From Candidatus Omnitrophota bacterium (GTDB lineage Bacteria > Omnitrophota > Omnitrophia > Omnitrophales > Aquincolibacteriaceae), in contig JAUYMS010000027.1 of NCBI GenBank assembly GCA_030698625.1, positions 103,781 to 167,780 of the forward strand: a stretch of 64,000 nucleotides of DNA. The letters run 5' to 3'. The notes under the pieces are model-generated. The model did not search any database and was not told the origin of the DNA. It saw only the letters and a program-made list of their open reading frames with translations. Shown piece by piece: positions 4,261 to 46,488 of the stretch (position 1 is its first letter; every line of letters begins with the position of its first letter). The translations under genes were made by a program, and so were the position numbers.

Positions 4261-7200
4261 TTACGCCATCGTCGAGATGAGTTTGGAGAGTTCGAATTCG
4301 TAGGCAATTTCCAGGGCCAAGTGGGTAATTTCCAGCGACTGCCTCGTAACCCGGACCGTTCCCTGCATTTGCGCCACCAGTTCCTCAAGGAGTTCAGCTT
4401 TAAGACGCTCATGCCTGTCTTTCAGGGCGAGCAGTGAGGTCATAAAAAGCGCGATAGGCATGCCCGACTCCACGCTCACCTGCGAGAGTAACAAGCGATT
4501 GCTATATTGACCCGATAGCTGCTCCTCAGCAACACCCAAAACCATGGCTAGCCCATGATCCCGCAAATAACTTTCCAGTAAAAACTGAGCTGGCTCAGAA
4601 TCGGCTTCAATGATCTTGGCCACACCGGAGGCCTCCAGCGCCTTGGCAAAGGCTACCCAACGTTTGCGCTCATCGGCGGTAAGCAGAACGCGAATATCGC
4701 CAGTCACTTGTAAGGGATGCGCCGCTCTAAGATCGCGAACCATCTCGACATATTGGCGCAATTCACTACGCGCCTTGACGGAATCCGGCATGCGTACGGC
4801 AAACGCGAAATTGAGTTTGTTCTGCGCGTCAGCTGCAAGATGCGACCTCAGCGCTTCTACGATACGTGATATACCAGCATCAATGAAGCTTCGATGTTCT
4901 CCGTCATAATCAGCATGATCCTGGCGAATCTGCCTTTCGGCGCGAAGCAGGGAAACGATTCCGCCGTCGGAACGGGCAAGCAACCAGAGATTCACGTATC
5001 GCGGCTCGCCCATCGCGGCATAAGCAGCCTTCTCAAAACTGTCTAAGCCGCCTGCAACCAAACCCGCGAGACGTCCTGCCAGATCCACTGGCAAGTCGGC
5101 ACGAGCCGCCAGAGCACCCAATACATCATGAGCCACCTCTCGCAGTTCGGAGCGATGGCGGTTGTCGCGCCCACCGCGACGCCGGCCGCGACCGAGGCGT
5201 TCTTCAATCTGTTTTTCTATTTCGCGGTCTTCGGTTATAAATTTTGCGAACTTTCCTACTGTATAACGAACCCACTCGAGGATCTCAGGGTTCCTTCGCG
5301 CTGAGCCAAAGGTCTCACGGTCCCAAATCCAAATCTCATAATCCTTCGGACGGCCCGTTTTGACATTGCGGCGTTTCCAGCCGTCGATCTTGCGCGCGAG
5401 GAAGCCCAACACCCCTGTTTTCTTCTCGTCGACCACCCATCTCTTCTCCTGACGTTTCCATACATTGGAACGGACCCAAGAATGAATCACCGCCTTATAT
5501 TCGTGACCGATGGAAGAATCGACGGTGGTAACGGTAAAGACGCCTTCGTCAAGCGCTTCGGTGGTTACGAATCTTTCACCGAGCTTCAGGTAGCGGCGCA
5601 AGTCCTGTGCCGCACGCACGTTGCGCCACTTGCGCAAGGACTGAATCTGTTCACCGACCCGGTCGCGCCACACATATTGGTAAAGCGCCTCTGAGCGCAG
5701 CGCGGTCTCGATCTGAGCAATCATGTCATCGTCGAGCTTCGCCTCTCCGTCGATGACCTGCTGTGTCCACTCATGGATCTTAGCCAATTCGTAAAGCGTT
5801 TCGGTGACGATCGCAATCTGGCGGCGGTACGGCGTCACCACTGCGATGTCTTTGGCCTCAAGCTTTTCGTAAAGGAATCGCCACTCGCCTTTATCGCCTT
5901 TCACATAGCGTTTCACTTTTCCGTTCATCAGCTCGTTGACCCAGTGGACCACACGGTTGGCCTCGACAAAATTACCGCCGGTAAACTCCCTACGATCACC
6001 GCGCGGAGCCGCTTTCGTCTCTTCCGGAGCACGGCCGTTGGTGTTATCTTCGATCACCACCCCCGGATCGTCACGTCCCGGAACGAGCTTGCCGTTATAG
6101 AAGTAGTTATTCACATCCACGATCCTATAGCCGGATCTGCGCTGAATATCGAAGAAGTGGAAGCTCGGTCTCGTAAGCTTGAAGATCTCGTCTTGAGGAT
6201 CACCCTCAAAATAGATCTCCAGTGCCCGCTCCAGGAGCGAGATGCGGAAATTGTCGACACGCTTTTGCGCGAAGACTCCTTCGCGGACATTCCGCCGCAA
6301 CGTAACCCGGCCGAAGTCGGCCTTGATCTCTTTAAAATCGGGCCCCAGTTCGCGCAGCGCCTTGTCGATATCGCCCTCGTTGTCGCCATCACTGATCCCA
6401 TAAGCCGGAAGCTGATTGTGGTCACCCACGAGCACCACCATTTCCAGATTGGGCAGATTATCCATCAATTGCAGGGCCTCGGCGAGTGTGGCGCGACTCC
6501 CTTCGTCGATAATCAGGATGCGCACCTCGTCGAGCAAAATCGGGTGGCTCAAAAGATCATGATCCTGTAGAGCGCCGTTAACTGTTCCGACTAGGACAAA
6601 CCCCTTGCCGCCCTTCTTGTCGGGAGGCGTCGCCGCCGCGGTCCGCTGGCGGTCCTTACTCGCCTGCACCGTGGCGCTCAGCTCTTTGAGCTTTTCGGCC
6701 TTCTTTTCCCAGTTGGCGCGAATTTCCGGATTCTCGATCGCCTGGTCACTGTTACCGATGCGCACGAAGGCAACCTCTTTGGGCAAACGTTCGATGGCAT
6801 TGTCCAAAGCTTGATTCTGCTGCGCTGCCACCAGCACATTTTGATTGCTATCGTAGAGCATCTTTACAAGCAGTGAGATGACATGGGTCTTTCCCGTTCC
6901 GCCCGGTCCTTGCACATAAACCACGGGGATTTCAGTATTGAGGAGTTCCACCACGGCCTCGCGCTGCGGCGGATCCAGCTCGTGATCCATCTCTTTTTCA
7001 AGAAGTTCGAGCCAGGCGCGGTTACGATCATTCTGCCGTCTCTTTTCTTCTGCGCCGGCAGCGCTCGGGATGTCGACACGAATTCCCAGGGCCCGGTCCA
7101 CGACCGTCTTTCCAGTCGTCGCAAGCGGGCCCGCATTTCCATCAATCTCAATGACGGACCGGGATGATTCAATAAGTTTCCGAATCATCCCGCGCAGCGT

Positions 7201-10200
7201 TTTGGCCTGCCGCTCCCAACCGTCATTGCGCATACGCGTCATAATGCCGGCACGGCCCATCCGCTCAAGCTTATTGACAAGCTCGTCGCGGCCCTCATGC
7301 GTCTTCGGAAGCTCAAAGACAACTTTTTTCGGCTCTACCGTCTTGACCCGGAACATGAGCGGCAGTTCTTCATCGTCGGTCGGATGACGGAAAGTGAAAC
7401 TATCGCCCGGGAGAATCACTTCTTTTAAATTAGCGGCCACAAGCTGATCCACCAGAAAACCGGTTACCGTAAACGTTGTGCGGTCTACGGTGAGGCGGTC
7501 AAACGGGAATTCGAATTCTACAGGGAGGTCTTTCGCACGGCGGCGCCGATGCTCATTGTCGTCGCGAAGCCTCTGAGCTTCGGCCATCGTTCTCACAATA
7601 AAATAGTCATCGATCATTTTCGGCAGCCACAAGCTTGCTACGGCCTGCGAAATAATCTCCTGCGCTTTCTTGAGGACGGCCTGCGACGGCCCGTTGTGGA
7701 CCGACAGTTCAATGACAAGCCGAGCCATCTGAATCGCTTCCTCGACAAGCACCTCATGCTGGCGCTCCTGCCGTTCATCGGCAGAACCAAGGTCGACAAG
7801 AATCCTCTGCTGACTCTGATTCAGCTGGAAAGCGTTTTCATCAGGTAAATTCGAAACAGCCTCGACGGCCCCATCAAAGGCTGCCTTGGCCTTCGTGAGC
7901 AGGAGGTTGAAGGTCCCTTCGCTTTCTTCCGGATAGGAGACCAGATGCACCGCAGCGCGGTAGGTTTCGCGAAGGTCGCCGTTGACTTCGATGACGGCAC
8001 GCAGTCTTCGGGCATTGCGTTCATGCTCGGCAATTTCGTCTGCCAGGTCTTTGATTTCGTCCTGAGCACGGGCCACACTTACGGCCCACGCATCTTCGAG
8101 GTCGCCGATTGCTTTGTCATACAGCCTGCGCGCGGCACGGAAGCGCTTAGTGCTGAGATTCCCTTTCACCTGACTCATGAGGTGTTGATAGGTCTTAATG
8201 CTGGTAATAGCGGCGCTCACTTTCTTGTCTTCACCGAATTTCAGATTTTTCTCCAGAACCTCAATCGAGCCTGTAATGGATTCGCGTTTGCCGGACGCGA
8301 TACGAATCGCGGTTCCCCGGATGAGATTGCTATAGAACTTATATCTCTGGGCATTAGGATCCCCGGGATTTAGTTCTTCGAGCTCTTTGGCCAGCTGGGC
8401 GATAGTCTCGTACTCATTCGGTGAGAGGGAGTCCCCGTATCCCTTGCGGATGCGTTGGAAGAGGTCTGCGGCTTGCGCGATTTTTGCTTTGAGCGCATTC
8501 AGCCGACCGCGTACTTCATCAAATTCTTTCGCCTTCGCTCCCTCGATACCGGCCCTCACGGAATTTTCGGCCCCTTTATAATCACCGGCGACGAGCAAGC
8601 GTTTTGCATCCTCGAGAAAATCCACCGGCCGCACCTTGCTCTGCAATGTCGGCAAAATTTCTTTCTGGATGCGCCGGCTAGCCTGGCCGCTTAAGCCCCG
8701 TTCAATCCTCTGCGCCAAGTTATAAACGGTGGCTGCGTGTTCCCGGTCGATGTTGTCTGCCAGCCACTTAAGCAAGATGTAGCTGGCATCGCCCTTCCAC
8801 TCTCCTTCGTTCTTCAGAAAATCTTCGAAATAGGCCGTAAGCCGTTGGCGGGTTAGCTCCGGGGCCATGAGTTCCAAGCGATATAGGATTTCTTTCAACT
8901 GTGCGCCGGTAAGCCTCTCGAACCCGGGGCCGGTCAAAAGATCCAAGTGACTTTCGATCAGGAGATTCTGAAAATCTTCGGGAATCGTCAGAAAGACTCG
9001 GGCAATATTTTTATTCGTAAGAAAGTTATTTGCCTTCGCCTGCTTCTTTTTCCCTTTCGTTTCCTGCGGCAGTGTCTTTTTCAGTTCCGCGCGGCCTTCA
9101 TCGAAGCTGCCTTGTGACCAATACACTATCGTAAAGGCCGCCTCGACAGAAAAATTGGAATCGATCTCGAGCTCGGAAAAGCGTTCGCGCGCGCGTGTTA
9201 AGGTCTTGAGCGCCTCTGCCGGGTTACCGGCGCTTAAGGCTGCGACGGCGCGGTGGAATTCGGCATTCGCATGCATCGCCGCCTTCCGCTTCTCATCCCC
9301 TTCATGTCCGGCGGCTGTCTGATAGATACCGAGCAACTCCTGCGCTTTCGCTCGGGCACGCTCCGGCAGATCCCCCTCGCCTTCGGCAAAGCTCGCTAAA
9401 ATTTCCATAAGCCCGGCGCCCCGCAGGACAACCATATCGCTTACTCCTTCGTAATCAAAATCAAGCATCTCGGTCGTTGCCTTTAGAAACGTCTCATCAT
9501 CCCTGACGGCCCAGGCAATTGTGGCTATGGACAACAGAAAGAATTTATTGCTCTGATAAAATTCGTCGCCCATGGCAAGCCTCAAGAACTTCGAGATTGT
9601 CCCTCTTAAGCCTGCCAGCTCCGAATCCCCCAGGTGAAGCGTATGCAGCCAGCTCCCGCTATTGAAGGCCTCAAACATCATTTCGTAGAGCTCGGCATTA
9701 GCCGCATGCCCTTCTTCGCGATGGCGCTCGAGGTACGCGAGGCCCCGGCCGAAGCGCTGGCCCCACAACTGAATCTCACTTTTCGCGTCCTCAATCTTTC
9801 CGTCACGCAGTTTTCCGTACACAGTCCGGTTCAAATGCTGCAAGGATGATGCCGCCAATACGTCCCCTTGATCCTGACCCATCCGGGGCATATGCGTCGC
9901 CACCGCTCTGAGGATCTTCTTATTGACCTCCAACTCGATGTCTTCTTCGTCGGCAATTGCCGCGAGTTCGGCCAAATTTTGGTAGAAGAAGAATATCAAC
10001 AGGCTCTCTTCGTGTTCGGAGAGCAACTGACGATACTGTTTGATGCCGCCTCTGAGGAAGCTCGTGAGGTTCCTCCGGAATGTTTGATAACGCTCACCCC
10101 CTTCGCCTTTTAGATATCTGCTCTCGTTGATAAGGAGTTTCAAGAAACGCGTATAAAAGGCAATGTCTAGAATGGCATTGATGCCTGTCCGTTGGCTAAA

Positions 10201-13200
10201 ACGTTCCCGGATGCGTTCAAAGAGGCCAAACATGGCCCCCGGATCGTAACCATGCTTCATAAGATGCGCATCGGCAAGGTCGGCAAACTTTTCAACATAC
10301 CGCGTCTTTTGATCGTCGGCAACATGACCGCTATTTGTTCCCCGGCCTGCGATCATGAAATAATTCAGAAAGCCGTCAATATCATCGGCCGTCTTATCGA
10401 TACTGGCTGTCAAGTAGTCCGCGGTTTGCTCCGCAAAAACGGCATCGCGCCCCTTGTTATCAAGGGTCAAGCGTTCAACCAGTTTGCGGGCTAAGATCGG
10501 ACTCCGAACGTTTAGGGCATTGAGTACGGCATGTATGTTTTCCCAATGGTTTGAAGGCCGCTGTCCCACTCTGTATAATCCTTCGACAATCGCAAGCGTG
10601 GCGCTCGTGATATAGCCGCCGGTTCTGATTTCACGTTCCAGAAGATACGTAACCATTTCCTCCATAGCCCCGGCATCGTCCGGCCATTGCTTGAAATCAT
10701 CGAAGATCTCACGGGAAAGTCTTGCGGCAGCTCCGAGCTGATGCATCGGTCGGCTTAGAAAAACGCTTTTGCGCGCGCCGGGAAGAACCTGCAATGTCCT
10801 TGCTTGGTAGAGCAATTTAAAGAAGAGCTTGAGGGCCTCCTTCGCTTCGTCGGGACGGCCCCTTAGAAGATGTACGGTCGCGTGGTCATACGGCAGAACC
10901 AGCCTCATTTCGCCCAATGCTTTCGGAGCCAGATCGCGATATATCCGGTCGGCCGTTTCAAGGTCCCCCGAGTAAAAAGCGGCGACAGCTTCGAAGTAAT
11001 CGTGCCAAGGCTCGAAGTATGCGTCCGCGTAGGCGCCCGTCGCCTTGCGGGCCTCGATCATTTTATGACCCGCCGCCACTGCCTGACGAAACGCCGCCTG
11101 CGCGCCTTCCATGTCCGGTTCCGTATCATCGGCCGGCGGATTGTTCAGAATAAACCCGCGCAGGAAGAGCAAGTGCGTCAGAAAGGATTGGGAAATGGCA
11201 TGGTTCGGATCCAGATCCAGCGCGAGACGGATAGATTCAAGCGCCTGATCAATGTGTGTGATGTCTTCCTTATAGAGCATATGAAAACCGGCAAGCTCGG
11301 AGAGCACATCCACCCTCATGCTCTGCACCTGGTCTTCGGGAATCCCCTCTTTGCCGACCTCATCTAAGAGCATTAAGGCCTTTTCCAGGGCAAGGAAGGC
11401 CATGGCGATTTCAGTCGGCTTGAGCGGGTCGAAGTTTAAGCGCAACTGCTCGGCCAACCGGGCGGCCATCTCGATCTGTTCCCAATTCGTCATATCTGTT
11501 TTCGACTGCACATAAACTTCCAGGAGCATACGCTCGGAATCGAGCATGTCTGCCGCAACCAGCAGATTGCTCAGGCGCCGGTAATTCCCGTAATCCAAGT
11601 CGCTGGAGTAGTGATAATCCACAACGGTTGGCAGGATCTGCTCTATGGTCTCACGGGGCGGCATGCCATCCCCATAAGAATTCATAAGAACAAAGGCCGC
11701 TGACTGACGCATAACAACCATCAGATCCATACCGGTTTTGAGATGTCTCAATTCTTGCGTGATCTGGTCTTCGCGATCTTGCAGCTTTCTTTCCTTTCTT
11801 ACGGATCCCGTCTTCGTCCTCGCGGTAACTTCATACTCCTCCTGCAGACGGATCATTTTGCGTGCCGCCGCCCCTCTTGCCTTATCAGTCTTATTCAGAA
11901 GGATATGGGCAAGCTCGATCGGATCCCCCTGCGCAGTCTTGAGACGTTCCACCTCGGCATCACTCTCACCCAAGATCTCTTCGACAACCACGCCGGCACG
12001 CATGAAATCTGTTTCCGCCCGCTCGCCGTGCTGTTCGCCAAGCTCTGTGCGCAATTCCGACCGCGCAGCGGGTTCAATCTCCAGAATCTGAAAATGCCAG
12101 CCGTCGATAACCGGAATACCGATGCCCCAGCCTTCGCGGTGCAGGGCCTCGCCCTTAAGGGTATCCGGTTCCGTCAAATATTTCTTCTGCAGATGATCAT
12201 AGACGCGGTAACGGGCATCTCCCCTCTCGATTCCGAGGAATCCCACATCGGTGAGGCGCACCCAGACTTTCTTATCGGGTTCGGTATGGTGCCGCGATCC
12301 GAATGAAATGGGTACAATCAGGCGGCGGCCTTCGTGGGTTCGCGCAAACACAATGACGGTCTCACGGCTGACTCGATGAAATTCAATTTCACCGTGGTCA
12401 AAAAGATCGCGGAGCGCCGTATCGCTGATAACATCATTTAGGCGGGCAAAGACTTCCTGATTCCAGTCTTTCATATAACGCAGCAGGTCGGGCGAGGCGA
12501 TGGCAATAAGGGCCATGACGGGCGGTATCCCAACCGGTCGCTTATCTTGATCGCTAAAGTGCTCCCGGGCTGCATTCGGTTTTAGCTCCGCCACGGTTTT
12601 CAGAACATTCTTGAGTTCCTCTGGTTTTTCCCGCAGGGTCTTGATTTCATTGATCAGCAACAGAGCCGGCGCCTGGTTGCCTCTGACAAATTCCCCGCGA
12701 ATCGCCGCACTTAGATAACGAATTAGTTTTTCTTCTTTGCGCTCGACAAAGCGCAATGCCTGAACCGTACGAACGTTCACCGGCAACCCCTGGGCAAAAA
12801 GATCCCCCACCGTATGCCGTCCATATTTGGCTTTCGTGTTCGCGTTCTCAACGTCAAAAACAGACGCCCTATCCCCAACGGCGTCCTCACCGAGCAGGGT
12901 GGTAAAACCGCGCACACCGTAAACCTCGGTCCCGCCGAGCGCCTCTTCGGTGGACTCATTGACCGCGACGAGAACCTTCTCGCCGTTAACGTGAACGGTA
13001 TAGGCCTTTACGTTCAACGTTGTCGCGTCGAGGAGCTCTCCATTTTTATGGAGGTACCGAATGAGATACTCCCGCAAACGAGCATCTTGGAAAAGCGTCG
13101 ATATTTCCTTGCCCTCCTTGATGGAACTCTCGAGTATGCTCCAAGAGAGGCGGATGGCAAGCAGGTTTATCACCTCAAAGGCATGCAGGTTTAATTCGAC

Positions 13201-16200
13201 TTTTTTGTTAAGCGACTTCTCAGATGCCGATGCGGTAGCCAGGCGTTTGATCTCATCTTTTACGTCCTTGAGACTCGGGTCATCGTCTTTGAGAAGATAA
13301 TTCAGGATGAAGTGGAAAATGTCACCTTCAGGGTGTAATTCGGGATTACTGGTATGATAGCTCATCGCCCACAGCGCCTCGACGCCGCGCATACGCAGTC
13401 GGCGAAAGCTGTCGAGAAAGCCCAGCAGGCCCGGGACGCCTTTTTCTACGAGAATCGTATCTTTCTTAGCGAGATCGGGACGGCGCGTCCAGCCAAAACC
13501 GTCGTCCTTGGCGAGGGTTAGAAGATTCGTCGCGGTAGTGCTCGGAATTTTCAGATTCGAGAAAATTTTATTCTGCTCATTGCGCCGGCTTATGGCTTCC
13601 TGCCAGAGAAAGGCGTGGGCCCGCGTCTGTCCGCGTTCGATATCGACTTTCCAGGATGATGCCACGGCCTGATACTGTGCTTCGCGCCGGCTAACAGGAT
13701 CGCTGTAGCGTGTCTTTAGGCCCTTGAGTGCGGCACCCAGGCTCGCGGCCATGGGCCGCCGTCCGCCGCCATCGACCCCGCTCATTTCAGAATTCGAATA
13801 TTCCACCAGGAACCCATTAGTGATTTCCCACACCCCGCTCTCCAGGTTCTGAACGAGTTCATCATGTGAAACATTTTCGGCGAAGATATCGATCTCACGG
13901 CCTGATGACTTCTCGATAATCGTAAAGAGTTCCGGCATGGCACCGCCCCAGACACCGATCAGTTGAGCGAAATTCGCCAAACCTTTCATCATGCTCGTGG
14001 CCGATGCCTCGAGAAACTCATCGGAGAGCATCACCACACCGGCCATGGCCTGAAAAATAACCGGCGCGGCGAATATACTGTAATTCTCCACCGTCGCAAT
14101 ACGGTGCTCGAGACCCAATTCCCGAATTAACTCTTTGATGCGATCGAATTTCCACTGGGCTCCGGAATCAAAGACGCGCCCGCCGATGACGACCCGAGCC
14201 GAGTCACGTTTAAATGCCGCAAGCGCTTCGGGGTCCCGCGCGAGCGATTCCAGGAGCTCGATCCACTTTTCCGGCCCCTTATACGCCACTTGGCGGCGAA
14301 TGTTCGAGACGATCGGGTCTTCAATAAGGATATCCCTGAGAACACCCACGTCTCCTGATAAATTCGCCCATTTCGTTTCGTCTAGAAGGGCGGCGTGAAT
14401 CGCTCCCATGAATGACTGAATCAGCATCGCTCCGTCTTCCGCTTTGTGCCCGGTGCGTTTCGTATATTCAGCGATGGCGTCCTCAAACCATAACGAATTT
14501 CCCTGCTCCACGGCCATCCACAGCAGAAATTGTCCGACATAACCCGCATTGACGTATTCGCTTCGCCTCTGAAATTCATCGCGAAGCGCTGCAGATGTGT
14601 TTAAAATCTTAAAAAATTCGCGGTCGCCGTCACTATCCACCATGCCAAGGCTCGTTTTGAATTGCTCAATTAGTTCACGCTTTTCGGGCGATTGCCACTG
14701 GTCGAGGAGCACGCCGTTGGTGCTGCGGACACCGTTGCTGTTGTACCCGGTCAGCTTGTGCATATGTCCTGAAAAGATTCCGTCATTTCGAAGCACGGGT
14801 GTGTGCTCATAGAGGCCGACACCGGTGATCATATCGGAGTACATGGCGACCGCATCGGTGATGTTGATCTTGTCGCCGTTCACGATATACGGTCTCATCC
14901 ATTCAGCAAACCCCAACATCTCATAGGAAGAGGCATTAGGACTATAGAGACCGGGGCGAAAAACGGTATGGTTAATATGGTGATGCATGGCGTTGGGGAA
15001 CATCGGAGTCGGCATGCTGGCGAACACCTCGTTATCCACAAAGAGGATATCCTGTTGGACAAGCTTTCGGCTCTGCAATTCCTTAAGCAGCATCTGGCTC
15101 GCCTGCGCATAGGCTCCCATGTGAACATCCCGCCACAGAGTCGTACCCGTCTCGTCAGCATCAGGATAGACCTCATCGAAAACACTGACCGTCCGCCCGT
15201 CCCCATTCACAAAAAAGATGTCAAGATAATAGCTGGGAGTTTTCCCGTACTTGGTTTGCGTCTCGTAGACATGAACCGTCAGTTCGCGGTCGACGACACT
15301 TCGCGCCTTCCCGCGGGCCTTATCTCGAAAGTCATCACCGATTTTCAGTTTCATCTTAAATTCGATGCCCGTATCATCCAGGACTTCCTTCAGGTAATCT
15401 CCGAGATTCTTCGCGCCCGCGAGCACTTCGAGCGGCAAAGCACCGTTTAGGCCCTCCGATCCCCGCTCCCCTCGGACAATTCCCTTGATCTTATTATTGT
15501 AAAGAGGGTGAATGGCAATGATGTCGGTACCGTTCTTGCGCCAGCCGTCGATCAGATCCGGCATAAGGGCCCCCAAACCGCCGGTGAAGTTGAGCTGTGA
15601 GACGAAATTTGCGATCTTTTTGCCGAAGCGGTTAGCAAGTTTTGCCAAAATATCACGGTGCAGGCCCGCTTCGAACTGCCGCGTAACCACGGTTACATTC
15701 TGAACATCTGGCGTGTTCTCGCTAACCCATGTGTGCCGCAGCTCAGACCGGTGTGTTTCCGCCGGAGTCTCCTCAGAGCCGACAACTTGATCAAGATGAT
15801 TGAGAGCAAAATCAATAGTCGGCAAATACCATACCGGTTCGCCTCTCCCGTTTAACGCATTGAGTGCCGCTTGAAAGGAATATCGCGCGAATACGATTGC
15901 CTGCTTTTCGGCTTGCGATCTGGCCTTAAACCGCAACTTGGGTCTAAACTCAACGAAGGCCTCCATCCCTACTTTACGTGCCGCCCAAGCAATACCCCTT
16001 TCCAGCCAACCGCCTGAAGCTCCACGCATGGGCGTAACAATCGCCCATATCGCTTGGTAATGCTCTTTGAGAACTTTGGTGCCGGCGGGAACCTGCATAT
16101 GACTATCGGCAATGAATGCTCTGAAGGTTTTCGTGACGCCCATCTCCCGCATGATTTCCTTAACCGAGCGCAAATCAAAAGTGCCCGTCATAAGCAAAAC

Positions 16201-19200
16201 GCCCCACAGCTGCTTACGCAAGAAGTCACGCAGCTCATGATCACGCGTCGTGATGATGTGGCGGCCGGCATAATCGAGGATTTCAATTTTCCCCTTTTTC
16301 AGACGATACTTCCAGCCGTCGAGGACTAATGTGGGATTGACGGCTTCAATGTATCGTTCGATCAGCTCCGAAGTAACTTGCGGCGCCTTAACACCTGCGG
16401 CGAGATCACGATTTTTCGGCAAATCAAGAATAGAGGTGGCGCGGCTAAGCGTGTCGAAAGTTGCATATCGGCGAAGAAAGCTTTGTGCTTTGCCTAAGTC
16501 GATCTCTGCGAAGGAGAGAGATACCTTGATCTCTACGGCTTCGTCTACTCGATTCAACTGCTCCGGTCTTGCTTGCGTCTGCGCAAATGGCTTGAAGAGT
16601 TCTTCCTCAGGCTCCAAAGCGACAAAAATATAAGCACGCTTAAAAGTGCCGGCGGGAAGCGCTTCCCCGGCGGCCGACACGGCACTTATTCTCCGGGAGA
16701 CCGCGCCCGGCAAATCCTGACGGATCAGCTGAAAGCGATCCTTGGTCATGGGTTCAAGGCCCATCCCCAACGTCTCTCTTTGTTGCCGAAGAGTCTCTGA
16801 AGGCGCACCGCCTCTGAATCCAACCAACGCATGCGGCAGAAACTCATTGGCCGCGAGTTCTGCCGGGGTCGCTGTCCAAATACCCACTTCATCCAAATTG
16901 TCTTGTTCGCTAAGGATTTCGTCTTCTGCTACGGCCATGACTTCTTGGATCGTGCCTTCACCAAAAGTAACCATCTGGGCCAGGTTCAGTTTTTCACGGG
17001 CGGCCTTCTGCTCTTCCTCCCGCCTGGAAGCGAGTGCCTCATTTCTGCGCGCGTCATCAGCCTTCCGTTCTTGCTCTGCGACATACTCCGCAATCGCGCT
17101 CATTTGGACGCCGAGCAGATCTTCCCGGCCCCGGATTCGCCTCTGCCGCTCTTGGATTTCCTTAAGAACGCTGACGCGTTCGGCTTCGCTGAAATGCCGT
17201 TCGTCGACCCAGGCCGAGCCGTCGGGGGCGATTTCATGGATCTCGACAATCAATGCCCGCAGTTCGTCATCGGAAATTCCGTAGGGCTGGTTAATCAGGA
17301 CCAAGTGCCCGTCCTCGATGGCGCTTACCAGAGACGCGACTTTATCGCTGTCCGTCCAGGCGCTCGGATCCTCGGTCATATCTCTAACATTCTGACGAAT
17401 ATTCTGAACGGTTTTCCCCGAACGGAATTTCAAATGAATCTCACTCACTCGGGCATTCGTGCTGTAGGATTCCGGTTGCGCCAAGATCACAACCATGACC
17501 GTTCCACCGTTGCGCAGCTCGACATCTTTGACTTTGTCTTCTAGAAAGTAGTCCGCTATTTGCCCTACCAGGTCTTCTTCCGGCTGAACGCGCTCGAATC
17601 CCAGACTTTGGAGTGCACTACCCTGTTCCTCGGTCGCGGGAATCACGCGCAGCGTAAAGCTTCCTTCAGCCGGTGCTTCCATTTCCTTCAATTGATTGAT
17701 CACGTCCTTATCACCGGCCATCACGCGCTCCGTGATCTCCGGGGTCTGTGACTTCAACTTCGCTGCTGTCTCATTCGGAACGAGGATGACGGGGCGCACT
17801 TCGGAGCTGTCATAGGCGCTGCGTCCCAATTCATAGTGCGCCGCGGAGTTCAATTCCGAGAACTGGTTTATAAGAAGGGGGTACGCATCGATGTTAGACT
17901 CCGGGGTCACTCCAGAGTAGACGCCCGGGTCCTTACCCTCGCTGTCATTACCGCGCGTCAGGAAAAAGCCCGCGTTTCTATCGAGAAGGCTCAGCACCTG
18001 CTGAAAGTGAAACGAATCCCCAATGCTCGTCTCGTTGATCAAGACTTGGTAGCCCTGCTTGATTTCTTCGGGGTAATCCCGGTCAGCATCAAAACCAAAG
18101 TAAGCAATAACCGTCCTCTCGATACCGTTATGCCGGAAAGTCGCGACGTATCTCTGCTGCTTGCGCTCCTGTCTCCTTCTCGCAAATTCAATTTCAGTTT
18201 CAGGATCGACCACAGATCCGAGCTGCTCTGTAACCTGCGCCTTGAAGTCACCAAAACTCAGAGGTTCCCGGTGCGTACCGATAAGGGTTTCAAAATCCGT
18301 CTTCATCAGGGTCCCGAGGATATCTAATTTCCCGGCTTCATCCCCGGCGCCGAGCCCCATGGAGTAAACAACCGGTTTATCAACGAGTGAGGTAATCAGC
18401 CGGGCCGTGTTTCGTGCCAAGGTCAGCTTCTTGCGCGCCACCTTTTCGCCCTGCCCGAACCCGTCGAAGAATTTCAGGACATGTTCTCTTGATGCCTTGA
18501 TGCCTGTGACAGGGAGTTCCAGATCCAGATCGATATCGCTACCCGGCAGTTCACTGCCGAGATCCCGGAACGGAATGTAGTGCGCGGCGCTTTCTTTCGC
18601 GCGGTTATAGGACTCTGCCGCTCTAAGCTCTGAACGCTTTAGATCCGTTTTTTCCAGAACGAGATATCGAAGGCTCCCGTCCGCTTTGCGCAGCGGATCG
18701 CCGCTTGCATCCTTTGGCACGAAGAGGAAACGCAGTACTTTTACATTGGTCACCTCGTCCAGCTTGGCCATTCCCGTCGTAAGGTCTGTCAGATCTTCGT
18801 CGGCAAGATAAACTAATAAGTCATTTTGCTTTGCGCCTACCGTGCGGAAGACCTCGGCAAATACCGCGGCGCGGCGGGCATCGCCGTATCCGGTTATTGC
18901 TTGGTTTATCGTAATTAGCGGCCGGTATCTTACAAAGCTCAGGTCGCCCTGGATCTCCAACCCCGACGGCACTGAAATCGGCTTTGAGAGGATGTCCTCC
19001 AAGGTTCGGCCTTCGTCCAACTGGTCAAACACGGCAATAAAATAATTCAGCATATTCCTTTCCTTCCGCACAATCTCGGCAAGGGTATCGCGATACAATC
19101 TGCGGTCATCCTTGTTGCCGATGACCCGCGCCAAGACCTCTTCGAGGTCTTCGAGCACGTCAGGGCTATACTCGTGATAATGCGGGTTCTGGATTTCGAG

Positions 19201-22200
19201 AAACCGCCCGAGCGAATTTCTAAAGATTGCCCCCATGCTATCCACATAATTCGGGGAGCGCTCGAGCTGCTGGAGGAATTGCTCGGCGAGCGTATCGTGG
19301 GAGAACAGATGCGTCGAAAACAAAGTACCGCCGCCGACGCCGCGCGCGGCAAAAGTAAAGGCATTGTTCAGGCCGAAATCTCCCGCCACGATTGCCGCAT
19401 CACTTAAAAAATGCAGGCGGTTAAATGTGCGGCTCTGTTGGCTCGCGATATTGATCACGATGACCGAGCCCGGCTTGATCTCGCCCGGGATCTTGACGTG
19501 CTTGTCGTGGAGGTCGATGAACGTCACTTCAGGCTTAAGGTCGTCGCCGTTTTCGAGAACATCAAAGATTTGATCGTGAAGCTTATGCTGCTGGCCGTGG
19601 ATGTCCTTATATTCTTGGCCCCTATTCAGCATCGTGAAGACGACAATCGGTTTTCCGTCCGCCATCGGGTATTTGTGTTCCCGCGCCTTGTGCAGGCTGT
19701 TGACGAAGCGGACAAAGGAGCGCCTATTGGCGTATTTGCTTGTATAGACAAAACCCATGAGACTTTCGGGAATGACATCATTGCGCAGATGTTCCAGGAG
19801 CTCGAGGTGAGGCGTAAAGCTGTTTTTCTCTTCCGTCGGATATACGGTAAACAGCTCATCAAAAAGCGCCTTACGGTGAGCCTTCATCACCATCGGGTCT
19901 CTCCATGCCTCTTTTCCGGTTCTCACGATATCCAGAATTTCTGGGTCCGCATAAATATAAGGAAGCACTTTGAGCTTTTCCTTTTTCGGATCATGCATGC
20001 CCGGCACGACTCCTTGAAACACGGCGACGCGATCACGGATCGGATCCAGCTGCGAGGTGTCGGAGCTCGGGATATTGACATAAGGGGCCACGAGAAACTG
20101 TGTGGGCCGTTCGGCCGGCGCAATTTCGGCCAGCAGTTTGTCGGCACGCAGCAGCGATTCCGGTCCGCGCGGACTGAGTTTGGAATCATAACTAAAAGAG
20201 ACAAAGCCGCGGCCGTCTTTAAGATCGACATCCTCCACGGCCCGATACCCCTGATCGAGCAAAAACTGCAGGCGCTCGTCTTCAATCTCATCAACGCTCG
20301 GTTCGGTACGCAGCTCCGAGCGCTTGGCACCGCCTTCCCGCACGAGCTTCTCCACCAAGTGAGGCTTTTGGCGGAAGAGGTGCAGAATGGTATTCGAAAA
20401 CTGGTCCGGATCTTGGTAAACGCGTCTTTGAAAGGTTTTCAGAGGCATCCGTTCCAGATCACTCATTTCATAGATATTGTATCCCTGCCGAATTGTCGCG
20501 ATCTCCGCAGAGTTACCCCGATAAACAAATAGCGTTCCGAACTCATTGTTGACCGTGTATCCCTGCCGGTAAGAGCGCTTCATCTCGTTGTCTGCAGAGA
20601 TTTGCGTGAGTCTGTGCAGGTCCATCTCAATGCCCAACTTTGCGCGGGTTTCCCGGACAACCGCATCAATGAGCGTCTCACCGACTCGGACTTGTCCTCC
20701 TGCGGTGATCTGTAATTTTCCCGGCGAGAGGATCCGGCTGAGGCTCCTGCGCGGCAGAAGGACGCGGCCGTCGTCATCGACAAACAACACCTGCGCGGCC
20801 TGATGCCAGTCCCCGTCCCGATAAACCCGGTACTTCGCCTTCCCTTGGCCGGCAAGAACTTGCCCTCTCTCGTCGACGATCTGCACGATATCTTGCTCAT
20901 CATTCAATCGCCGCCATGCCCCGCCGCGAATGGACTCAATATCTCCGCTCTCTCCTGCGGGCTTAGGCCGCATCACTAATTTATCCTGAAAACTCACACG
21001 ATATTGACTGGCGTGGATTCCGAGAAGTCCAATAACCGACTGTGCGAGTAATTCCGGCGAATAAAAACCCCACTCGCGATCCACTTCCTTGTAGCTTGTC
21101 CCGGAGCGTTCCAACGGCTTTCTGATTTCCAGATCGAGACCGATGGTTCCGACCTGGCTGCGGATGCTGCGGTCGACTTCGGACTGATCGAACGGTATGT
21201 AGAGTTTCCCGGGATCCCTCTTTTGGTAAGTGGTGGGGCTGCCGACGGTATAGTGAACAACGCCTCTGACATCCGGAAAATTATGCGTCGGGTGACTATG
21301 CACAAACTGCCTCGTCGCATACCGGTAGATGCGCTTGACCAGTCCCAGGGCCGTGGTTCCGTAAGGTTCGGCTTCGCTCGTGGGGTTGGCAATGTGAATC
21401 TTTACGGCCTTTTCATTGCTGCGAATGGCCTCTCCGAGCCCGGGGACAATTAGAGAGCTTCCGATATTGGATTCCAGGGTGGTGTTGCCGTAGACGATGG
21501 CGTCGGCATTCCGCAGAACCTCGGCGACATTCTCGCTCACCGGATCCTCGCTGATATCGTCACCAAGAATCTCGGAAATAAGGCCGGCGGTTTCAAACGC
21601 CTGTTTTTCGTCTACCTTGCGCGATGTTTCTAGAATCTCACGGGCCAGTCCTTCGTCATAATCTTCTCCTCCTGCCTCCGGAGATCCGAGCCATACCCCT
21701 CTGCGCTGCAGAGTCAGGGGCTCGATATCGATCCCGCGCTCGCGAATCTTACGTTCAAACTCGGCAATCTCAACCGGGCGGTCCACCAGCCACAGCCCGA
21801 TAAACGGGTGCGTCTTGTCTCGGAATTCATTAACGCCGGTCTCGGCAAAGTAGATCGTCCCGTCCCCGGCCATGGCAACGAGATGTTGCCGCTTCTCGGT
21901 CGGGAAGAGCACCCGGTCTCCTTGCTTCATATCCAGAACCGCACCGACGGCATCGACAGCCTTTTGCCAGAAATTCTCCTCACCCGTATCTTCGAGCTCC
22001 CAGGCAGCGCCAAGCAGCGCCAAGCTCCTGAGCGGCATAAATTCGTAAGTGAATTCACTCTCGGCATACCGGGTATTCAATGTATCGCGAAACTTCTTGA
22101 GATAGCCGGTGAGTTCCCCTCGTTTTGCGCCGGCTATAGCCAGCCCCTTTTCTGAAAGCTCGCGCATCGACTCATAGTGAAACTCGACACCACTCTCTCC

Positions 22201-45189: not shown

Positions 45190-45279
45190 TGGCGGAGAGG
45201 AAGGGATTCGAACCCTTGAGACCTTGCAGTCTACTCGCTTTCCAAGCGAGCGCACTCGACCGGGCTATGCGACCTCTCC
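45190..45279 (-). tRNA. tRNA-Ser (anticodon GGA)
   Basis: Reverse-complement GGAGAGGTCGCATAGCCCGGTCGAGTGCGCTCGCTTGGAAAGCGAG...AAGGGTTCGAATCCCTTCCTCTCCGCCA. A 7-bp acceptor stem, a 3-bp class-II D-stem, the anticodon loop TTGGAAA, a long variable arm, and T-loop TTCGAAT. CCA is encoded. Confidence 0.85.
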
Positions 45280-45304
45280 GTATAACTTTCAAAAAAGCTT
45301 ACCG

Positions 45305-46003
45305 CTAATCTTTTAAAGCCGCTGCCAGCTCTCTATAGATCTCCGGCAACTTTCCGTTCCACTGGTTAAAATAAACCAGGTCCTCGAGCGGAAGCCGACT
45401 CCGCCACCCCGCAGCTTCCAATTCAGGGATCTCCGGGAACTCGCTCACATACCCAAGGCACAGGTACGCCACAATGACATGTTTGGGAGGGATATTTAAT
45501 ATCTCGTGAAGATCTTGGCGGTTGAGAATGCTCACCCACCCCACCCCGATGTTTTCGGCGCGCGCCGCAAGCCAGAGATTCTGAACTGCGCACACCGTCG
45601 AGTACACATCCGTTTCACGCATACTGTTGCGCCCGATGACTTCTCCGGGAATCCGGTTCCGATCGCACGTGACGCATATATTGAGCGGCGACTCCAGGAT
45701 TCCTTCGAGCTTATAAGAAAGATATTTCTCGCGGCGTTCCGCATCAAATTTTTCTGCGGCAGCTTCGCGCTCCCTGAGAAAGGACTCCCGCACGCGTGCC
45801 TTAACACCGACATCGTCAACAACAATAAAACTCCACGGCTGCATGTATCCAACGGACCCGGCGTGATGCGCCGCCTTTAAAATTCGCCCAAGCATCGCAA
45901 CCGGGATGGGTTCCGCCGTGAAGTGTTTTCTTATATCGCGGCGGCCGAAGATCGTTTTGTAAACCGCGTCTCTTTCTGCTGCTGTGATGTCGGGTTGACC
46001 CAT
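45305..46003 (-). CDS. nitroreductase-family protein, BluB (5,6-dimethylbenzimidazole synthase)-like
   Basis: 232 aa. RRDIRKHFTAEPIPVAMLGRILKAAHHAGSVGYMQPWSFIVV matches the BluB/nitroreductase N-terminal block. Confidence 0.6.
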   Translation of the reverse strand: MGQPDITAAERDAVYKTIFGRRDIRKHFTAEPIPVAMLGRILKAAHHAGSVGYMQPWSFIVVDDVGVKARVRESFLREREAAAEKFDAERREKYLSYKLEGILESPLNICVTCDRNRIPGEVIGRNSMRETDVYSTVCAVQNLWLAARAENIGVGWVSILNRQDLHEILNIPPKHVIVAYLCLGYVSEFPEIPELEAAGWRSRLPLEDLVYFNQWNGKLPEIYRELAAALKD

Positions 46004-46488
46004 TACCTTTTTTCCTTGCGGAGATTTCGAAAAAACTCCTGCAGAATTAGACGCGCGTCCTGCTCCAGGATTCCGGAGACAACGTTTAAGGTGTGATTCA
46101 AACGATCGTCCTCAGGAATCCGGTAAAGACTTTCACACGCGCCGGCCTTCGGATCCTTTGCCCCATAAACTAAGGTTTTACACTTCGTCAGAACCAGCGC
46201 TCCCGCACACATAGAACACGGTTCAAGGGTCACATAAAGAGTCGCTCCTTCGAGCGAACCGCGATGGCCCTCTTTGCCCTGGGAAACGGTTTCAGACGCT
46301 TGGGTAAGCGCGATCATTTCGGCGTGCGCTGTCGGATCCTTGAGCGTTTCCATCTGATTGTGGGCGCGCCCTACGATTCGGTTTTTCCAAATCACAACAG
46401 CGCCCACAGGCGCTTCGCCCTTGTCGAATGCGAGCTTGGCCTGCTTTAACGCTTCGCGCATATAGTGTTCGTGAACCGAATCGCTCAT
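46003..46488 (-). CDS. tadA: tRNA adenosine(34) deaminase
   Basis: 161 aa with the CDA-fold zinc motifs HAEMIAL and TLEPCSMCAGAL. Confidence 0.85.
   Translation of the reverse strand: MSDSVHEHYMREALKQAKLAFDKGEAPVGAVVIWKNRIVGRAHNQMETLKDPTAHAEMIALTQASETVSQGKEGHRGSLEGATLYVTLEPCSMCAGALVLTKCKTLVYGAKDPKAGACESLYRIPEDDRLNHTLNVVSGILEQDARLILQEFFRNLRKEKR

What the first reader, a model, noticed from the sequence alone, without database searches (positions are those of the whole stretch)
5470..6960. Complete Upf1/DNA2-like SF1 helicase core embedded near the C-terminus of a secreted/membrane giant protein
Walker A (GPGGTGKT), DExx-like motif II (IIDEGS), motif III (VGDHNQLP) and Upf1-type motif V/VI ([14 protein letters not shown]) are all intact, so the ATPase is probably active. 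A nucleic-acid helicase in a protein that starts with a signal peptide is paradoxical. It suggests this C-terminal portion, after a long TPR-like region, stays cytoplasmic. Alternatively the module may act on nucleic acids in another compartment or cell, e.g. a prey or host. It is flanked downstream by the RSELR sites at about 5153 and about 4758.
Basis: partly seen in the sequence, partly recalled or inferred. Interest (0 to 1): 0.6.

Follow-up and report, generated by a model that had tools for sequence, protein, structure and literature searches.

The report
Upf1-like helicase in Omnitrophota giant polyprotein
A complete, apparently active RNA/DNA helicase motor of the Upf1 type sits inside an 11,456-residue protein of an uncultured Omnitrophota bacterium, as one conserved unit of about 2,300 residues bounded by a repeated five-residue motif (RSELR) that looks like a cutting site, so the giant protein is probably processed into many smaller proteins.

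Summary
Window 5155-7500 (- strand; aa 10378-11159 of an 11,456-aa ORF, 4261-38631) encodes a full SF1B Upf1-like helicase: Pfam AAA_11/AAA_12 above threshold, and top structural matches to IGHMBP2, DNA2, Upf1, Sen1 and Aquarius. Every catalytic residue is invariant in 13 relatives that are only 26-44% identical.

The host is a Candidatus Omnitrophota MAG, and the gene lies about 19 kb from dnaA. The helicase is the C-terminal third of a 2,303-aa unit (weakly TPR-like region + poorly modelled pre-helicase region + helicase) bounded by two of 16 exact RSELR motifs (0.03 expected). The unit recurs in giant ORFs that, where named, are almost all Omnitrophota. In at least ten of them RSExR follows the helicase (six are bounded on both sides). 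Codons at the motif vary synonymously. Three membrane anchors start 5-7 residues after a motif, and two paralogous segments run motif to motif.

My best reading is a polyprotein-like giant whose TPR-helicase unit has no membrane segment and works in the cytoplasm on RNA or DNA. That dissolves the signal-peptide paradox. Cleavage, the protease and the substrate are inferred, not shown.

The parts
4261..38631 (-). Giant ORF, 11,456 aa, split by 16 exact RSELR motifs into 17 segments
   Evidence: 0.03 RSELR motifs are expected from composition.
5140..12048 (-). Segment 15 (aa 8862-11164, 2,303 aa): the TPR-like + helicase unit, bounded by RSELR on both sides, with no hydrophobic segment
   Evidence: Homologous units bounded by RSExR occur in P0125, P0126, P0128, P0130, P0131 and L007.
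7501..12048 (-). N-terminal ~1,500 aa of the unit: weakly TPR-like region with low sequence conservation until about aa 10160
   Evidence: Only sub-threshold TPR_1/4/6/12 hits, E about 1e-3. Conservation profile. Homology to relatives extends back to aa ~9082.
6979..7500 (-). Pre-helicase accessory region (aa 10378-10551): short strands plus helices ending in a long helix before the Q motif. It sits where Upf1-like helicases (from my knowledge of the Upf1 structures) carry the 1B barrel and stalk.
   Evidence: Conserved in the clade (GDxF..R, FE.P, GG..R motifs). The AlphaFold model is low-confidence here (pLDDT <50 for most of residues 1-147), so the fold is not established.
6952..6978 (-). 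Q motif LDPPQREAV (Q10556)
   Evidence: Q is invariant in 13/13 relatives.
6883..6912 (-). Motif I / Walker [11 protein letters not shown] (K10581)
6793..6831 (-). Motif Ia [13 protein letters not shown]
   Evidence: Aligned to IGHMBP2 'CCAPSNIAVDNLV'; conservation.
6487..6516 (-). Motif II / Walker [11 protein letters not shown] (D10709, E10710). Clade-specific R/T/L where the wider family has Q.
6397..6435 (-). Motif [16 protein letters not shown] (Q10740)
6118..6156 (-). Motif [15 protein letters not shown] (R10832)
5551..5817 (-). About 90-aa helical insert in RecA2 between the PY..Q element and motif V, conserved across the clade and absent from the wider-family consensus
   Evidence: Confident helices 559-651 of the model; clade alignment; family consensus spacing.
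5464..5529 (-). Motif [23 protein letters not shown] (G11042, E11044). Clade-specific SIG where the wider family has FQG.
5347..5406 (-). Motif [22 protein letters not shown] (R11087, R11094).
12049..12063 (-). RSELR motif (aa 8857-8861), upstream boundary of the unit
5140..5154 (-). RSELR motif (aa 11160-11164), downstream boundary of the unit, in a low-confidence tail after the last helix
   Evidence: RSExR occupies the same position in P0125, P0001, P0128, P0131, P0130 and P0136 and follows motif V by about 110-160 aa in L006, L007 and L010.
4264..5139 (-). C-terminal ~290-aa module (segments 16+17), conserved in P0125, P0128, P0136 and P0001. In this window it is split by an extra RSELR at 4756-4770.
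36598..38631 (-). Segment 1: N-terminal signal/anchor (38512-38631) plus a conserved domain of unknown function that co-occurs with the helicase unit in many relatives

Best explanation
The region encodes a catalytically competent SF1B helicase of the Upf1-like class. It has two RecA-like domains with motifs Q, I, Ia, II, III, IV, V and VI, a conserved helical insert in RecA2, and a poorly modelled region before RecA1.

The helicase is not a stray domain. It is the C-terminal third of a conserved unit of about 2,300 aa (weakly TPR-like region + helicase). That unit, together with an N-terminal signal-anchored domain and, in a subset of relatives, a C-terminal 290-aa module, forms the recurring core of a family of Omnitrophota giant ORFs. 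The enzyme modules between these parts vary from protein to protein.

In this gene the unit is bounded by RSELR, a motif conserved at the peptide level that most likely marks proteolytic processing sites. The giant would then be a polyprotein. Released, or even left uncleaved, the unit carries no membrane segment and lies after the last transmembrane helix, so it should sit in the bacterial cytoplasm with access to ATP.

There it would bind single-stranded RNA or DNA in the cleft above the two RecA domains and translocate 5'->3' at the expense of ATP, as Upf1, IGHMBP2, Sen1 and DNA2 do. The N-terminal region would act as a docking platform for partners.

Shown: helicase identity, motif integrity, conservation of the unit, the statistics and conservation of the motif, and the absence of hydrophobic segments.
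Inferred: cleavage at RSELR, cytoplasmic location, polarity, and nucleic-acid substrate. The biological target (for example the gene's own 34-kb transcript or R-loops) is speculation.
For: Helicase identity:
- Pfam AAA_11 (1e-19), AAA_12 (3e-10), AAA_30 and AAA_19.
- PDB sequence hits to IGHMBP2, DNA2 and UPF1.
- AlphaFold model pTM 0.73, core confident.
- Foldseek top hits: IGHMBP2 1e-18, DNA2, Upf1, Sen1, Aquarius, ZNFX1, SETX, nsp13.

Activity:
- All catalytic residues are invariant in 13 relatives at 26-44% identity.

Conserved unit:
- 13 representatives at E<=1e-30, nearly all 3-8 kaa, with the helicase internal.
- Homology extends about 1,200-2,100 aa upstream of the helicase end.
- It co-occurs with the segment 1 domain in at least 10 giant ORFs.
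- The clade is seen almost only in Omnitrophota-labelled MAGs.

RSELR as processing or separator sites:
- 16 motifs against 0.03 expected.
- All five codons vary synonymously.
- RSExR recurs 8, 11 and 9 times in P0125, P0130 and P0131 and in L006-L008 and L010.
- It lies at the same helicase C-terminal boundary in at least ten lineages while the flanks are unalignable.
- Paralogs seg8 and seg9 (65% identical) run motif to motif.
- Homology blocks with P0131 and P0125 start at the motif.
- 3 of 5 internal TM helices start 5-7 aa after a motif (permutation p = 2e-5).
- All six TM helices have the more positive flank on the N side, which cannot be satisfied in one serpentine chain but fits separate polypeptides.

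Location:
- No hydrophobic segment in aa 8862-11164, and no credible one after aa 4234.
Against: - No protease domain was recognised anywhere in the giant (Pfam and NCBIfam) or among the neighbouring genes.
- Cleavage has no direct evidence.
- About half of the relatives (P0127/L001, P0129, P0132, P0133, P0135, L002) carry the same unit in giant ORFs without RSExR.
- Residues flanking the motifs are not significantly enriched in disorder-promoting amino acids (p about 0.1).
- In relatives such as P0125 my hydropathy scan found no further credible membrane segment besides the N-terminal signal-like one. An uncleaved chain there would be exported whole, which keeps an extracellular or prey-directed role open.
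- Two clade-specific departures from the wider-family consensus (DEGS-R for DEASQ; SIG for FQG in motif V) have unknown effect.
- The pre-helicase region is poorly modelled.
- TPR assignment rests on sub-threshold hits only.
Confidence: 0.6

Rival explanations
1. Exported effector. The whole giant follows its N-terminal Sec-type signal out of the cell. RSExR cleavage happens outside or inside a prey or host cell, as in MARTX-type multi-effector toxins. The helicase, along with the NUDIX, GNAT, phosphatase and other modules, then acts on prey nucleic acids using prey ATP.
For: - A signal-like N-terminus is conserved in the family.
- P0125 (7,471 aa) shows no other credible membrane segment in my hydropathy scan.
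- Omnitrophota are proposed predators or parasites, and their giant proteins are proposed to act on target cells (PMC10066038; 10.1101/2023.11.21.568195).
Against: - In this protein three units start with their own N-in signal anchors. A hairpin unit has a strongly basic tail. The receiver, GNAT, histidine-phosphatase, CofD-like and NUDIX modules, whose families are ordinarily cytoplasmic enzymes, carry no signal. This pattern fits cytoplasmic processing followed by selective export.
- No autoprocessing protease (C80, C39, S8), toxin translocation domain or SecA-like domain was detected.
Confidence: 0.12
2. Unprocessed membrane-tethered megaprotein. RSELR is a conserved junction, docking or modification motif rather than a cleavage site. 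The helicase works as the cytoplasmic C-terminal part of one 1.3-MDa chain.
For: - With a cleaved signal plus five TM helices the C-terminal 7,200 aa are cytoplasmic by parity.
- No protease was found.
- Many relatives lack the motif.
- The window has an RSELR inside the C-terminal module, which is contiguous in relatives.
Against: - A serpentine topology puts the 65%-identical paralogs seg8 and seg9 on opposite sides of the membrane.
- It also violates the positive-inside rule at several helices.
- Strict five-residue conservation with free flanks and free codons is the pattern I know from viral-polyprotein protease sites.
- Modules are gained and lost exactly at motifs.
Confidence: 0.2
3. 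Mokosh-like antiviral helicase. The module senses phage RNA or replication intermediates, as MkoA does.
For: The best profile match of all libraries is PADLOC MkoA (E 2.9e-35, helicase part of the profile). Mokosh uses a COG1112/Upf1-like helicase (10.1101/2022.05.11.491447).
Against: - No PLD nuclease or Ser/Thr kinase domain was found in the giant or its neighbours.
- The match covers only profile positions 607-1013 of 1112.
- The gene sits among housekeeping genes next to the replication origin, not in a defence island.
- The helicase is fixed in a conserved giant-ORF core.
Confidence: 0.06
4. Degenerate pseudo-helicase that serves only as a structural or ATP-binding scaffold.
For: Departures from the wider-family consensus in motif II (Q->R) and motif V (Q->I), plus window-specific low-complexity and basic inserts.
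Against: All residues known to bind and hydrolyse ATP in Upf1-like helicases are present and invariant across the clade. The two departures are themselves conserved in the clade.
Confidence: 0.03

Closest known systems
Upf1-like SF1B helicases (UPF1, IGHMBP2/SMUBP-2, DNA2, Sen1/SETX, Aquarius, ZNFX1; Pfam AAA_11 + AAA_12)
   Same: - Same two-RecA core and the same motif set and order.
- Best sequence and fold matches.
- Like Aquarius and Sen1 (from my own knowledge of those proteins), a large N-terminal extension precedes the helicase.
   Different: - Only 17-20% identity to solved structures.
- No CH zinc-knuckle (UPF1), no PD-(D/E)XK nuclease (DNA2), no R3H (IGHMBP2).
- An extra ~90-aa helical insert in RecA2.
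- Motif II DEGSR and motif V SIG variants.
- Bacterial, and embedded in an 11,456-aa ORF.
MkoA helicase of the Mokosh anti-phage system
   Same: Closest profile match (E 2.9e-35) over the helicase core. Both are prokaryotic COG1112/Upf1-like helicases with long N-terminal extensions.
   Different: No PLD nuclease partner or fusion, no kinase domain, no defence-island context. Only the core part of the profile is matched.
Omnitrophota giant proteins (Archaeovorins and 'multi-enzyme' class; West-Roberts et al. 2023 preprint; 2026 complete-genome preprint)
   Same: Same phylum. Longer than 10 kaa. Many unrelated enzyme domains (receiver, GNAT, NUDIX, methyltransferase-like) tiled along one ORF with transmembrane segments. 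Post-translational cleavage has been suspected.
   Different: - No SecA_DEAD, C39, S8 or dockerin domains here.
- The motor is an SF1 Upf1-like helicase. The full 2023 preprint does not contain the terms AAA_11, AAA_12, Upf1 or DNA2, and the word 'helicase' does not occur in the 2026 preprint or in PMC10066038.
- The 2023 preprint states that cleavage points are unknown, whereas this family shows an explicit RSExR separator.
Replicase polyproteins of positive-strand RNA viruses (e.g. nidovirus pp1ab with helicase nsp13)
   Same: The fold hit to nsp13 is measured here. The rest is an analogy from my own knowledge: one very long ORF, a short conserved motif between units, membrane-anchoring units, and an Upf1-like SF1 helicase towards the C-terminus.
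   Different: - A cellular chromosomal gene beside dnaA, gyrAB and serS.
- No polymerase and no recognised protease.
- No relatives found in IMG/VR with the patterns scanned.
- This is an analogy of organisation, not homology of the whole.
MARTX multi-effector toxins
   Same: From my own knowledge: a giant bacterial protein carrying several unrelated enzyme modules that are released by site-specific proteolysis.
   Different: No C80 cysteine protease domain, no glycine-rich repeats, no T1SS signal detected. The modules here look like housekeeping-type enzymes, and several carry their own membrane anchors.

Membership tests
SF1B Upf1-like helicase (Pfam AAA_11/AAA_12) | Scores above Pfam gathering thresholds for AAA_11 (RecA1) and AAA_12 (RecA2) | tested here: met
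   AAA_11 71.8 bits vs 27; AAA_12 40.4 bits vs 27.
SF1B Upf1-like helicase (Pfam AAA_11/AAA_12) | Motifs Q, I, Ia, II, III, IV, V and VI present in order, with catalytic K, D/E, Q, R, R | tested here: met
   K10581, D10709/E10710, Q10740, R10832, G11042/E11044 and R11087/R11094 are present and invariant in 13 relatives.
SF1B Upf1-like helicase (Pfam AAA_11/AAA_12) | Fold closest to Upf1/IGHMBP2/DNA2 rather than to UvrD/Rep (SF1A) | tested here: met
   Foldseek: IGHMBP2, DNA2, Upf1 and Sen1 at E 1e-18 to 1e-16; Rep, PcrA and UvrD at 1e-11 to 1e-10.
SF1B Upf1-like helicase (Pfam AAA_11/AAA_12) | Accessory domains 1B (beta-barrel) and 1C inserted in RecA1 | tested here: inconclusive
   The region before the Q motif is conserved and has strands plus a long helix, but pLDDT is <50. 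Helical inserts lie between Ia and II and between III and IV.
SF1B Upf1-like helicase (Pfam AAA_11/AAA_12) | Nucleic-acid-dependent ATPase with 5'->3' translocation | not testable with these tools
   Needs biochemistry.
IGHMBP2 family (NCBIfam TIGR00376) | Score above the curated cut-off | tested here: not met
   66.6 bits vs cut-off 348.9; only residues 169-252 matched.
DNA2 nuclease-helicase | PD-(D/E)XK nuclease domain (Pfam Dna2 / PDDEXK_1) N-terminal to the helicase | tested here: not met
   No such Pfam hit in the 2,303-aa unit.
UPF1 proper | N-terminal CH zinc-knuckle domain | tested here: not met
   No UPF1_Zn_bind hit. The upstream sequence is a poorly conserved, weakly TPR-like region.
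Mokosh defence system | MkoA-type helicase | tested here: inconclusive
   PADLOC MkoA E 2.9e-35, but only profile positions 607-1013 of 1112 are matched.
Mokosh defence system | PLD-family nuclease (MkoB, or fused) and, in type I, a Ser/Thr kinase domain | tested here: not met
   No PLD or kinase domain in any of the 17 segments or in the flanking genes.
Omnitrophota giant 'multi-enzyme' proteins | ORF of at least 10 kaa in an Omnitrophota genome, with many distinct Pfam families and none dominating | tested here: met
   11,456 aa. Neighbouring genes are identical to proteins of a Ca. Omnitrophota MAG. Receiver, GNAT, His_Phos_1, CofD, NUDIX and AAA_11/12 domains. Class definition.
SecA-DEAD / C39 'Archaeovorin'-type giant proteins | SecA_DEAD motor, C39 or S8 peptidase, dockerin domains | tested here: not met
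   None detected at E<=0.01 or at E<=5 in the unannotated segments.
Proteolytically processed polyprotein | Recurrent conserved short motif at unit boundaries, under peptide-level selection | tested here: met
Proteolytically processed polyprotein | A cognate protease and demonstrated cleavage products | tested here: not met
   No protease domain was recognised. The segment 1 model has no significant fold match. Cleavage products cannot be tested with these tools.

The most novel reading that the evidence does not exclude
The giant ORF is a cellular polyprotein run by a strict RSExR cleavage code. Its Sec-type leader takes the chain, or selected units, out of the cell. The TPR-helicase unit is then released as an effector that attacks RNA or DNA inside a prey or host cell, making it a MARTX-like multi-effector system whose conserved core is a nucleic-acid motor.
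Probability: 0.1. Interest if true: 0.9.

Novelty: new variant of a known kind. Interest (0 to 1): 0.6.

Why it matters
Omnitrophota giant genes are among the longest known, and their function and processing are open questions. The 2023 survey states that no cleavage points are known.

This locus offers two concrete handles. The first is an explicit, testable separator motif (RSExR) that recurs across lineages and predicts the products. The second is a conserved core (N-terminal domain + TPR/Upf1-like helicase unit, plus a C-terminal module in a subset) around which variable enzyme cargo is exchanged.

If the sites are cleaved, bacteria would have a virus-like polyprotein strategy for co-expressing about 17 proteins from one 34-kb gene. 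An Upf1-type helicase would be its constant component. That would point to an RNA- or DNA-handling step that is intrinsic to making or using giant genes. It would also define a distinct Omnitrophota-restricted clade of bacterial Upf1-like helicases, a group of which few members have been studied, to my knowledge.

Tried and rejected
- RNA- or DNA-level meaning of the repeated motif: rejected, because all five codons vary synonymously among the 16 copies.
- 'RSELR' in the literature: only varSelRF software hits and the R(S/T)E(L/V)R catalytic region of PL7 alginate lyases. This is irrelevant, because the motif here sits at unit borders rather than inside a recognised lyase domain.
- Protease hunt: Pfam at E<=5 and NCBIfam at E<=0.1 on all unannotated segments found none.
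- Segment 1 as a Tiki/erythromycin-esterase-like hydrolase. This was my guess from the invariant H, E, E, R and GGFH residues. A good AlphaFold model (pLDDT 80) gave no significant PDB match. EreC and BcR135 appeared only at E about 1.5, and a profile search of PDB sequences was negative. Unresolved.
- Segment 2 'HSHP...PSLSD' as a JAB/MPN motif: seen by eye only, Pfam negative, and not conserved in relatives.
- Viral origin: no relatives in IMG/VR with the patterns scanned, and housekeeping genes flank the ORF.
- First GTDB scan with window-specific patterns found nothing. A second scan with clade-wide patterns found 8 loci.
- Disorder-type composition around the motifs: not significant.
- The word-indexed protein search returned none of the giant relatives. 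The exhaustive HMMER search was needed.
Full report
**What is there.**
The window contains one uninterrupted ORF of 11,456 codons on the - strand (4261..38631). The flagged stretch, 5470-6960, corresponds to aa 10558-11054 of it.
- Pfam places AAA_11 (71.8 bits, E 1e-19) and AAA_12 (40.4 bits, E 3e-10) there, both above the curated cut-off of 27. AAA_30 and AAA_19 also match.
- A sequence search of PDB chains returns IGHMBP2 (4b3g), DNA2 (5eax) and UPF1 (2xzo). Motifs I, Ia, II, III, the PY..Q element and motif V are aligned residue by residue.
- An AlphaFold model of aa 10378-11164, built on 40 homologues, has pTM 0.73 and a confident core.
- Its best Foldseek matches are IGHMBP2 (E 1e-18), DNA2, Upf1, Sen1, Aquarius, ZNFX1, SETX and coronavirus nsp13. 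All rank ahead of the SF1A helicases Rep, PcrA and UvrD.

One correction: [14 protein letters not shown] is motif V only. Motif VI ([20 protein letters not shown], window 5347-5406) lies just outside the stated range.

**Is the ATPase intact?**
I aligned the module with 12 relatives that share only 26-44% identity with it. The following residues are identical in 13 of 13 sequences:
- Q-motif Gln (Q10556)
- Walker A Lys (K10581)
- Walker B Asp-Glu (D10709/E10710)
- motif III Gln (Q10740)
- motif IV Arg (R10832)
- motif V Gly and Glu (G11042, E11044)
- both motif VI Arg (R11087, R11094)

Against a wider family alignment there are two departures. The Gln that usually ends motif II (DEASQ) is Arg here, and Thr or Leu in three relatives. 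The Gln of motif V (FQG) is Ile, giving SIG. Both departures are shared by most of the clade, so they are lineage features rather than decay. A pseudo-helicase reading is therefore unlikely.

**Accessory parts.**
- Compared with the wider-family consensus spacing, the clade carries a confident helical insert of about 90 aa in RecA2, between the PY..Q element and motif V (model helices 559-651).
- There are shorter helical inserts between motifs Ia and II and between III and IV.
- The 170 residues before the Q motif are conserved in the clade and modelled as short strands plus helices ending in a long helix. From my knowledge of the Upf1 structures, this is where Upf1-like enzymes place the 1B barrel and stalk. 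The confidence is too low to call the fold.
- Upstream lie about 1,500 aa with only sub-threshold TPR hits and little sequence conservation until about aa 10160. No catalytic-looking motif stands out there. I read it as a scaffold, but that is an inference.

**Whose gene is it?**
Four neighbouring proteins (YchF, SerRS, CorA, GyrA) are identical to proteins of a Candidatus Omnitrophota MAG on a 178,844-bp contig. The window also holds dnaA, dnaN, gyrB, gyrA, serS, yidC and mnmG, and the cumulative GC-skew minimum is near 58 kb. The giant gene is therefore a chromosomal gene about 19 kb from dnaA, transcribed in the same direction as dnaA. It is not part of a mobile element or a defence island. 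Giant ORFs are a known feature of this phylum.

**The helicase belongs to a conserved unit.**
An exhaustive HMMER search with aa 9965-11164 found 13 representatives at E<=1e-30 and 54 at E<=1e-10. Nearly all of the strongest are 3-8 kaa long, with the helicase internal.
- Homology reaches 1,200-2,100 aa upstream of the helicase's end.
- The same proteins often share the giant's N-terminal domain (segment 1).
- A subset shares its last 290 aa.
- Most other segments have no counterpart in the relatives; segments 6 and 14 each match a single one.

So the family has a recurring core of N-terminal domain plus TPR-helicase unit, with a C-terminal module in a subset, around variable enzyme cargo. Here the cargo includes a receiver domain, GNAT, histidine phosphatase, a GlnD-like nucleotidyltransferase, CofD-like, NUDIX and others.

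Where a source names the organism it is almost always Omnitrophota. The exceptions are one MAG labelled Planctomycetia and two labelled 'uncultured bacterium'. No relatives were found in IMG/VR with the patterns scanned.

**The RSELR motifs.**
The ORF contains 16 exact RSELR pentapeptides, where composition predicts 0.03, and none occurs in any other frame of the window.
- All five codons vary synonymously among the copies, so selection acts on the peptide.
- The helicase unit (aa 8862-11164) lies exactly between two motifs.
- RSExR recurs in relatives: 8 copies in P0125, 11 in P0130 (mostly RSEAR), 9 in P0131, and 6-7 in each of the GTDB loci L006-L008.
- It follows the helicase at the same place in at least ten lineages, although the flanking residues cannot be aligned.
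- In P0125, P0126, P0128, P0130, P0131 and L007 a motif also lies upstream, giving units of about 2,160-2,750 aa.
- Segments 8 and 9 are 65%-identical paralogs that begin and end at motifs.
- Homology blocks with P0131 and P0125 begin at the motif.
- P0125 has an extra 178-aa unit inserted between two motifs where the window has none.

These properties are what I would expect of protease recognition sites in a polyprotein.

Caveats:
- No protease domain was recognised in the giant or its neighbours.
- About half of the relatives lack the motif.
- Flanking composition is not significantly disorder-like.
- One window motif (aa 11288) lies inside a module that is contiguous in relatives.

A hydropathy scan finds six credible membrane segments, at aa 16, 1376, ~1581, 2377, 3178 and 4216. 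There is none in the helicase unit and no credible one after 4234.
- Three of the five internal segments start 5-7 residues after an RSELR (permutation p = 2e-5).
- All six have the more positive flank on their N side. One serpentine chain cannot satisfy that, and it would place the paralogs seg8 and seg9 on opposite sides of the membrane.
- If the segments are separate polypeptides, every helix obeys the positive-inside rule. Segments 1, 8 and 9 and part of segment 10 are exported or anchored. The nucleotide-dependent enzymes, including the helicase, stay in the cytoplasm.
- Even without cleavage, a cleaved signal plus five helices leaves the C-terminal 7,200 aa inside by parity.

Either way the helicase of this protein should have access to ATP and to the cell's own nucleic acids. 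In relatives such as P0125, where my hydropathy scan found no other credible membrane segment besides the signal-like N-terminus, an uncleaved chain would be exported. The prey-directed alternative therefore cannot be excluded.

**Most likely mechanism.**
The unit is released, or at least located, in the cytoplasm as a protein of about 260 kDa. Its helicase binds single-stranded RNA or DNA across the two RecA domains and moves 5'->3' using ATP, as established for Upf1, IGHMBP2, Sen1 and DNA2. The N-terminal region would offer docking surfaces. Polarity, substrate and biological target are inferred from family membership. A role on the gene's own 34-kb transcript or on R-loops is speculation.

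**Comparison with known systems.**
- It is a member of the Upf1-like SF1B class: thresholds, motifs and fold are all met.
- It is not a member of the IGHMBP2 family (66.6 vs 348.9 bits).
- It is not DNA2 (no nuclease domain) and not UPF1 proper (no CH domain).
- Its best profile match overall is the Mokosh helicase MkoA (E 2.9e-35). The match covers only the core, and the defining PLD nuclease and kinase are absent.
- Within Omnitrophota giant proteins it fits the 'multi-enzyme' class. It lacks the SecA_DEAD, C39, S8 and dockerin domains emphasised for Archaeovorins.
- Term searches of the papers read found no SF1/Upf1-like helicase unit and no separator motif: no AAA_11, AAA_12, Upf1 or DNA2 in the 2023 preprint, and no 'helicase' in the 2026 preprint or in PMC10066038.
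- The 2023 preprint states that cleavage points are unknown.

**Verdict.**
The finding is real and the helicase is very probably active. The signal-peptide paradox is resolved most simply by the unit structure of the giant. The helicase itself is a new, Omnitrophota-restricted variant of a known kind. The more interesting result is its context: a conserved TPR-helicase unit inside a family of giant ORFs with an explicit RSExR separator code. Interest 0.6.

Noticed in passing
window 4756-36612 (16 sites; first base of each RSELR on the - strand: 36612, 35691, 35244, 34536, 33723, 32709, 31536, 29136, 26748, 24894, 20322, 18636, 15750, 12063, 5154, 4770): 16 exact RSELR pentapeptides split the giant ORF into 17 segments. 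0.03 are expected by chance, the codons vary synonymously, and RSExR is conserved in relatives. They are probably processing sites.
   Followed up: yes
window 26734-31521 (-), aa 2371-3966: Two tandem paralogous segments, 65% identical. Each consists of RSELR, a transmembrane anchor, a proline-rich linker and a ~700-aa domain with no family match.
   Followed up: partly
window 36598-38631 (-), aa 1-678: An N-terminal signal/anchor plus a conserved domain, with invariant H, E, E, R and GGFH residues, found at the start of many helicase-bearing giant ORFs. The model is good (pLDDT 80) but has no significant PDB fold match. Erythromycin-esterase-like chains appear only at E about 1.5.
   Followed up: partly
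window ~35780-35840 (-), aa ~931-949: [19 protein letters not shown] in segment 2 resembles the JAB/MPN metalloprotease HxH...S..D signature. This was seen by eye only. Pfam is negative and the segment is not conserved in relatives.
   Followed up: partly
window 48100-63165: Replication-origin neighbourhood: dnaA (57205-58596, -), dnaN, gyrB, a GAF histidine kinase inserted between gyrB and gyrA, gyrA, serS, then yidC and mnmG on the + strand. The GC-skew minimum is near 58 kb. The giant gene is transcribed in the same direction as dnaA, about 19 kb from it.
   Followed up: partly
window 45190-48092: A tRNA cluster (Ser-GGA, Arg-ACG, Ser-GCT, Ser-TGA) next to serS. Three of the four are serine tRNAs.
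   Followed up: no
window 12049-15735 (-), aa 7633-8861: Segment 14 has a GGLGALM start and an [10 protein letters not shown] motif that I recall from alpha-glucan phosphorylases. The only support is a very weak TIGR02094 hit (E 0.087). It has a clear homologue in P0125 that begins just after an RSELR.
   Followed up: partly
window 4264-5139 (-), aa 11165-11456: A C-terminal ~290-aa module conserved in P0125, P0128, P0136 and P0001, all ending in ...A. In this window an extra RSELR splits it in a likely interdomain linker.
   Followed up: partly
aa 5040, 1087, 3893 of the giant (window ~23500-23514, ~35359-35373, ~26941-26955): Near-motifs RSEIQ and RSEPR (twice). They may be decayed or incidental sites.
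   Followed up: no
L001 (Ga0180437_10000670) and L002 (Ga0172381_10000209): Giant ORFs with the same TPR-helicase unit but no RSExR. L002 also carries six HEAT-like 36-43-aa repeats (DSASRG) about 3,500 aa downstream of the helicase.
   Followed up: partly
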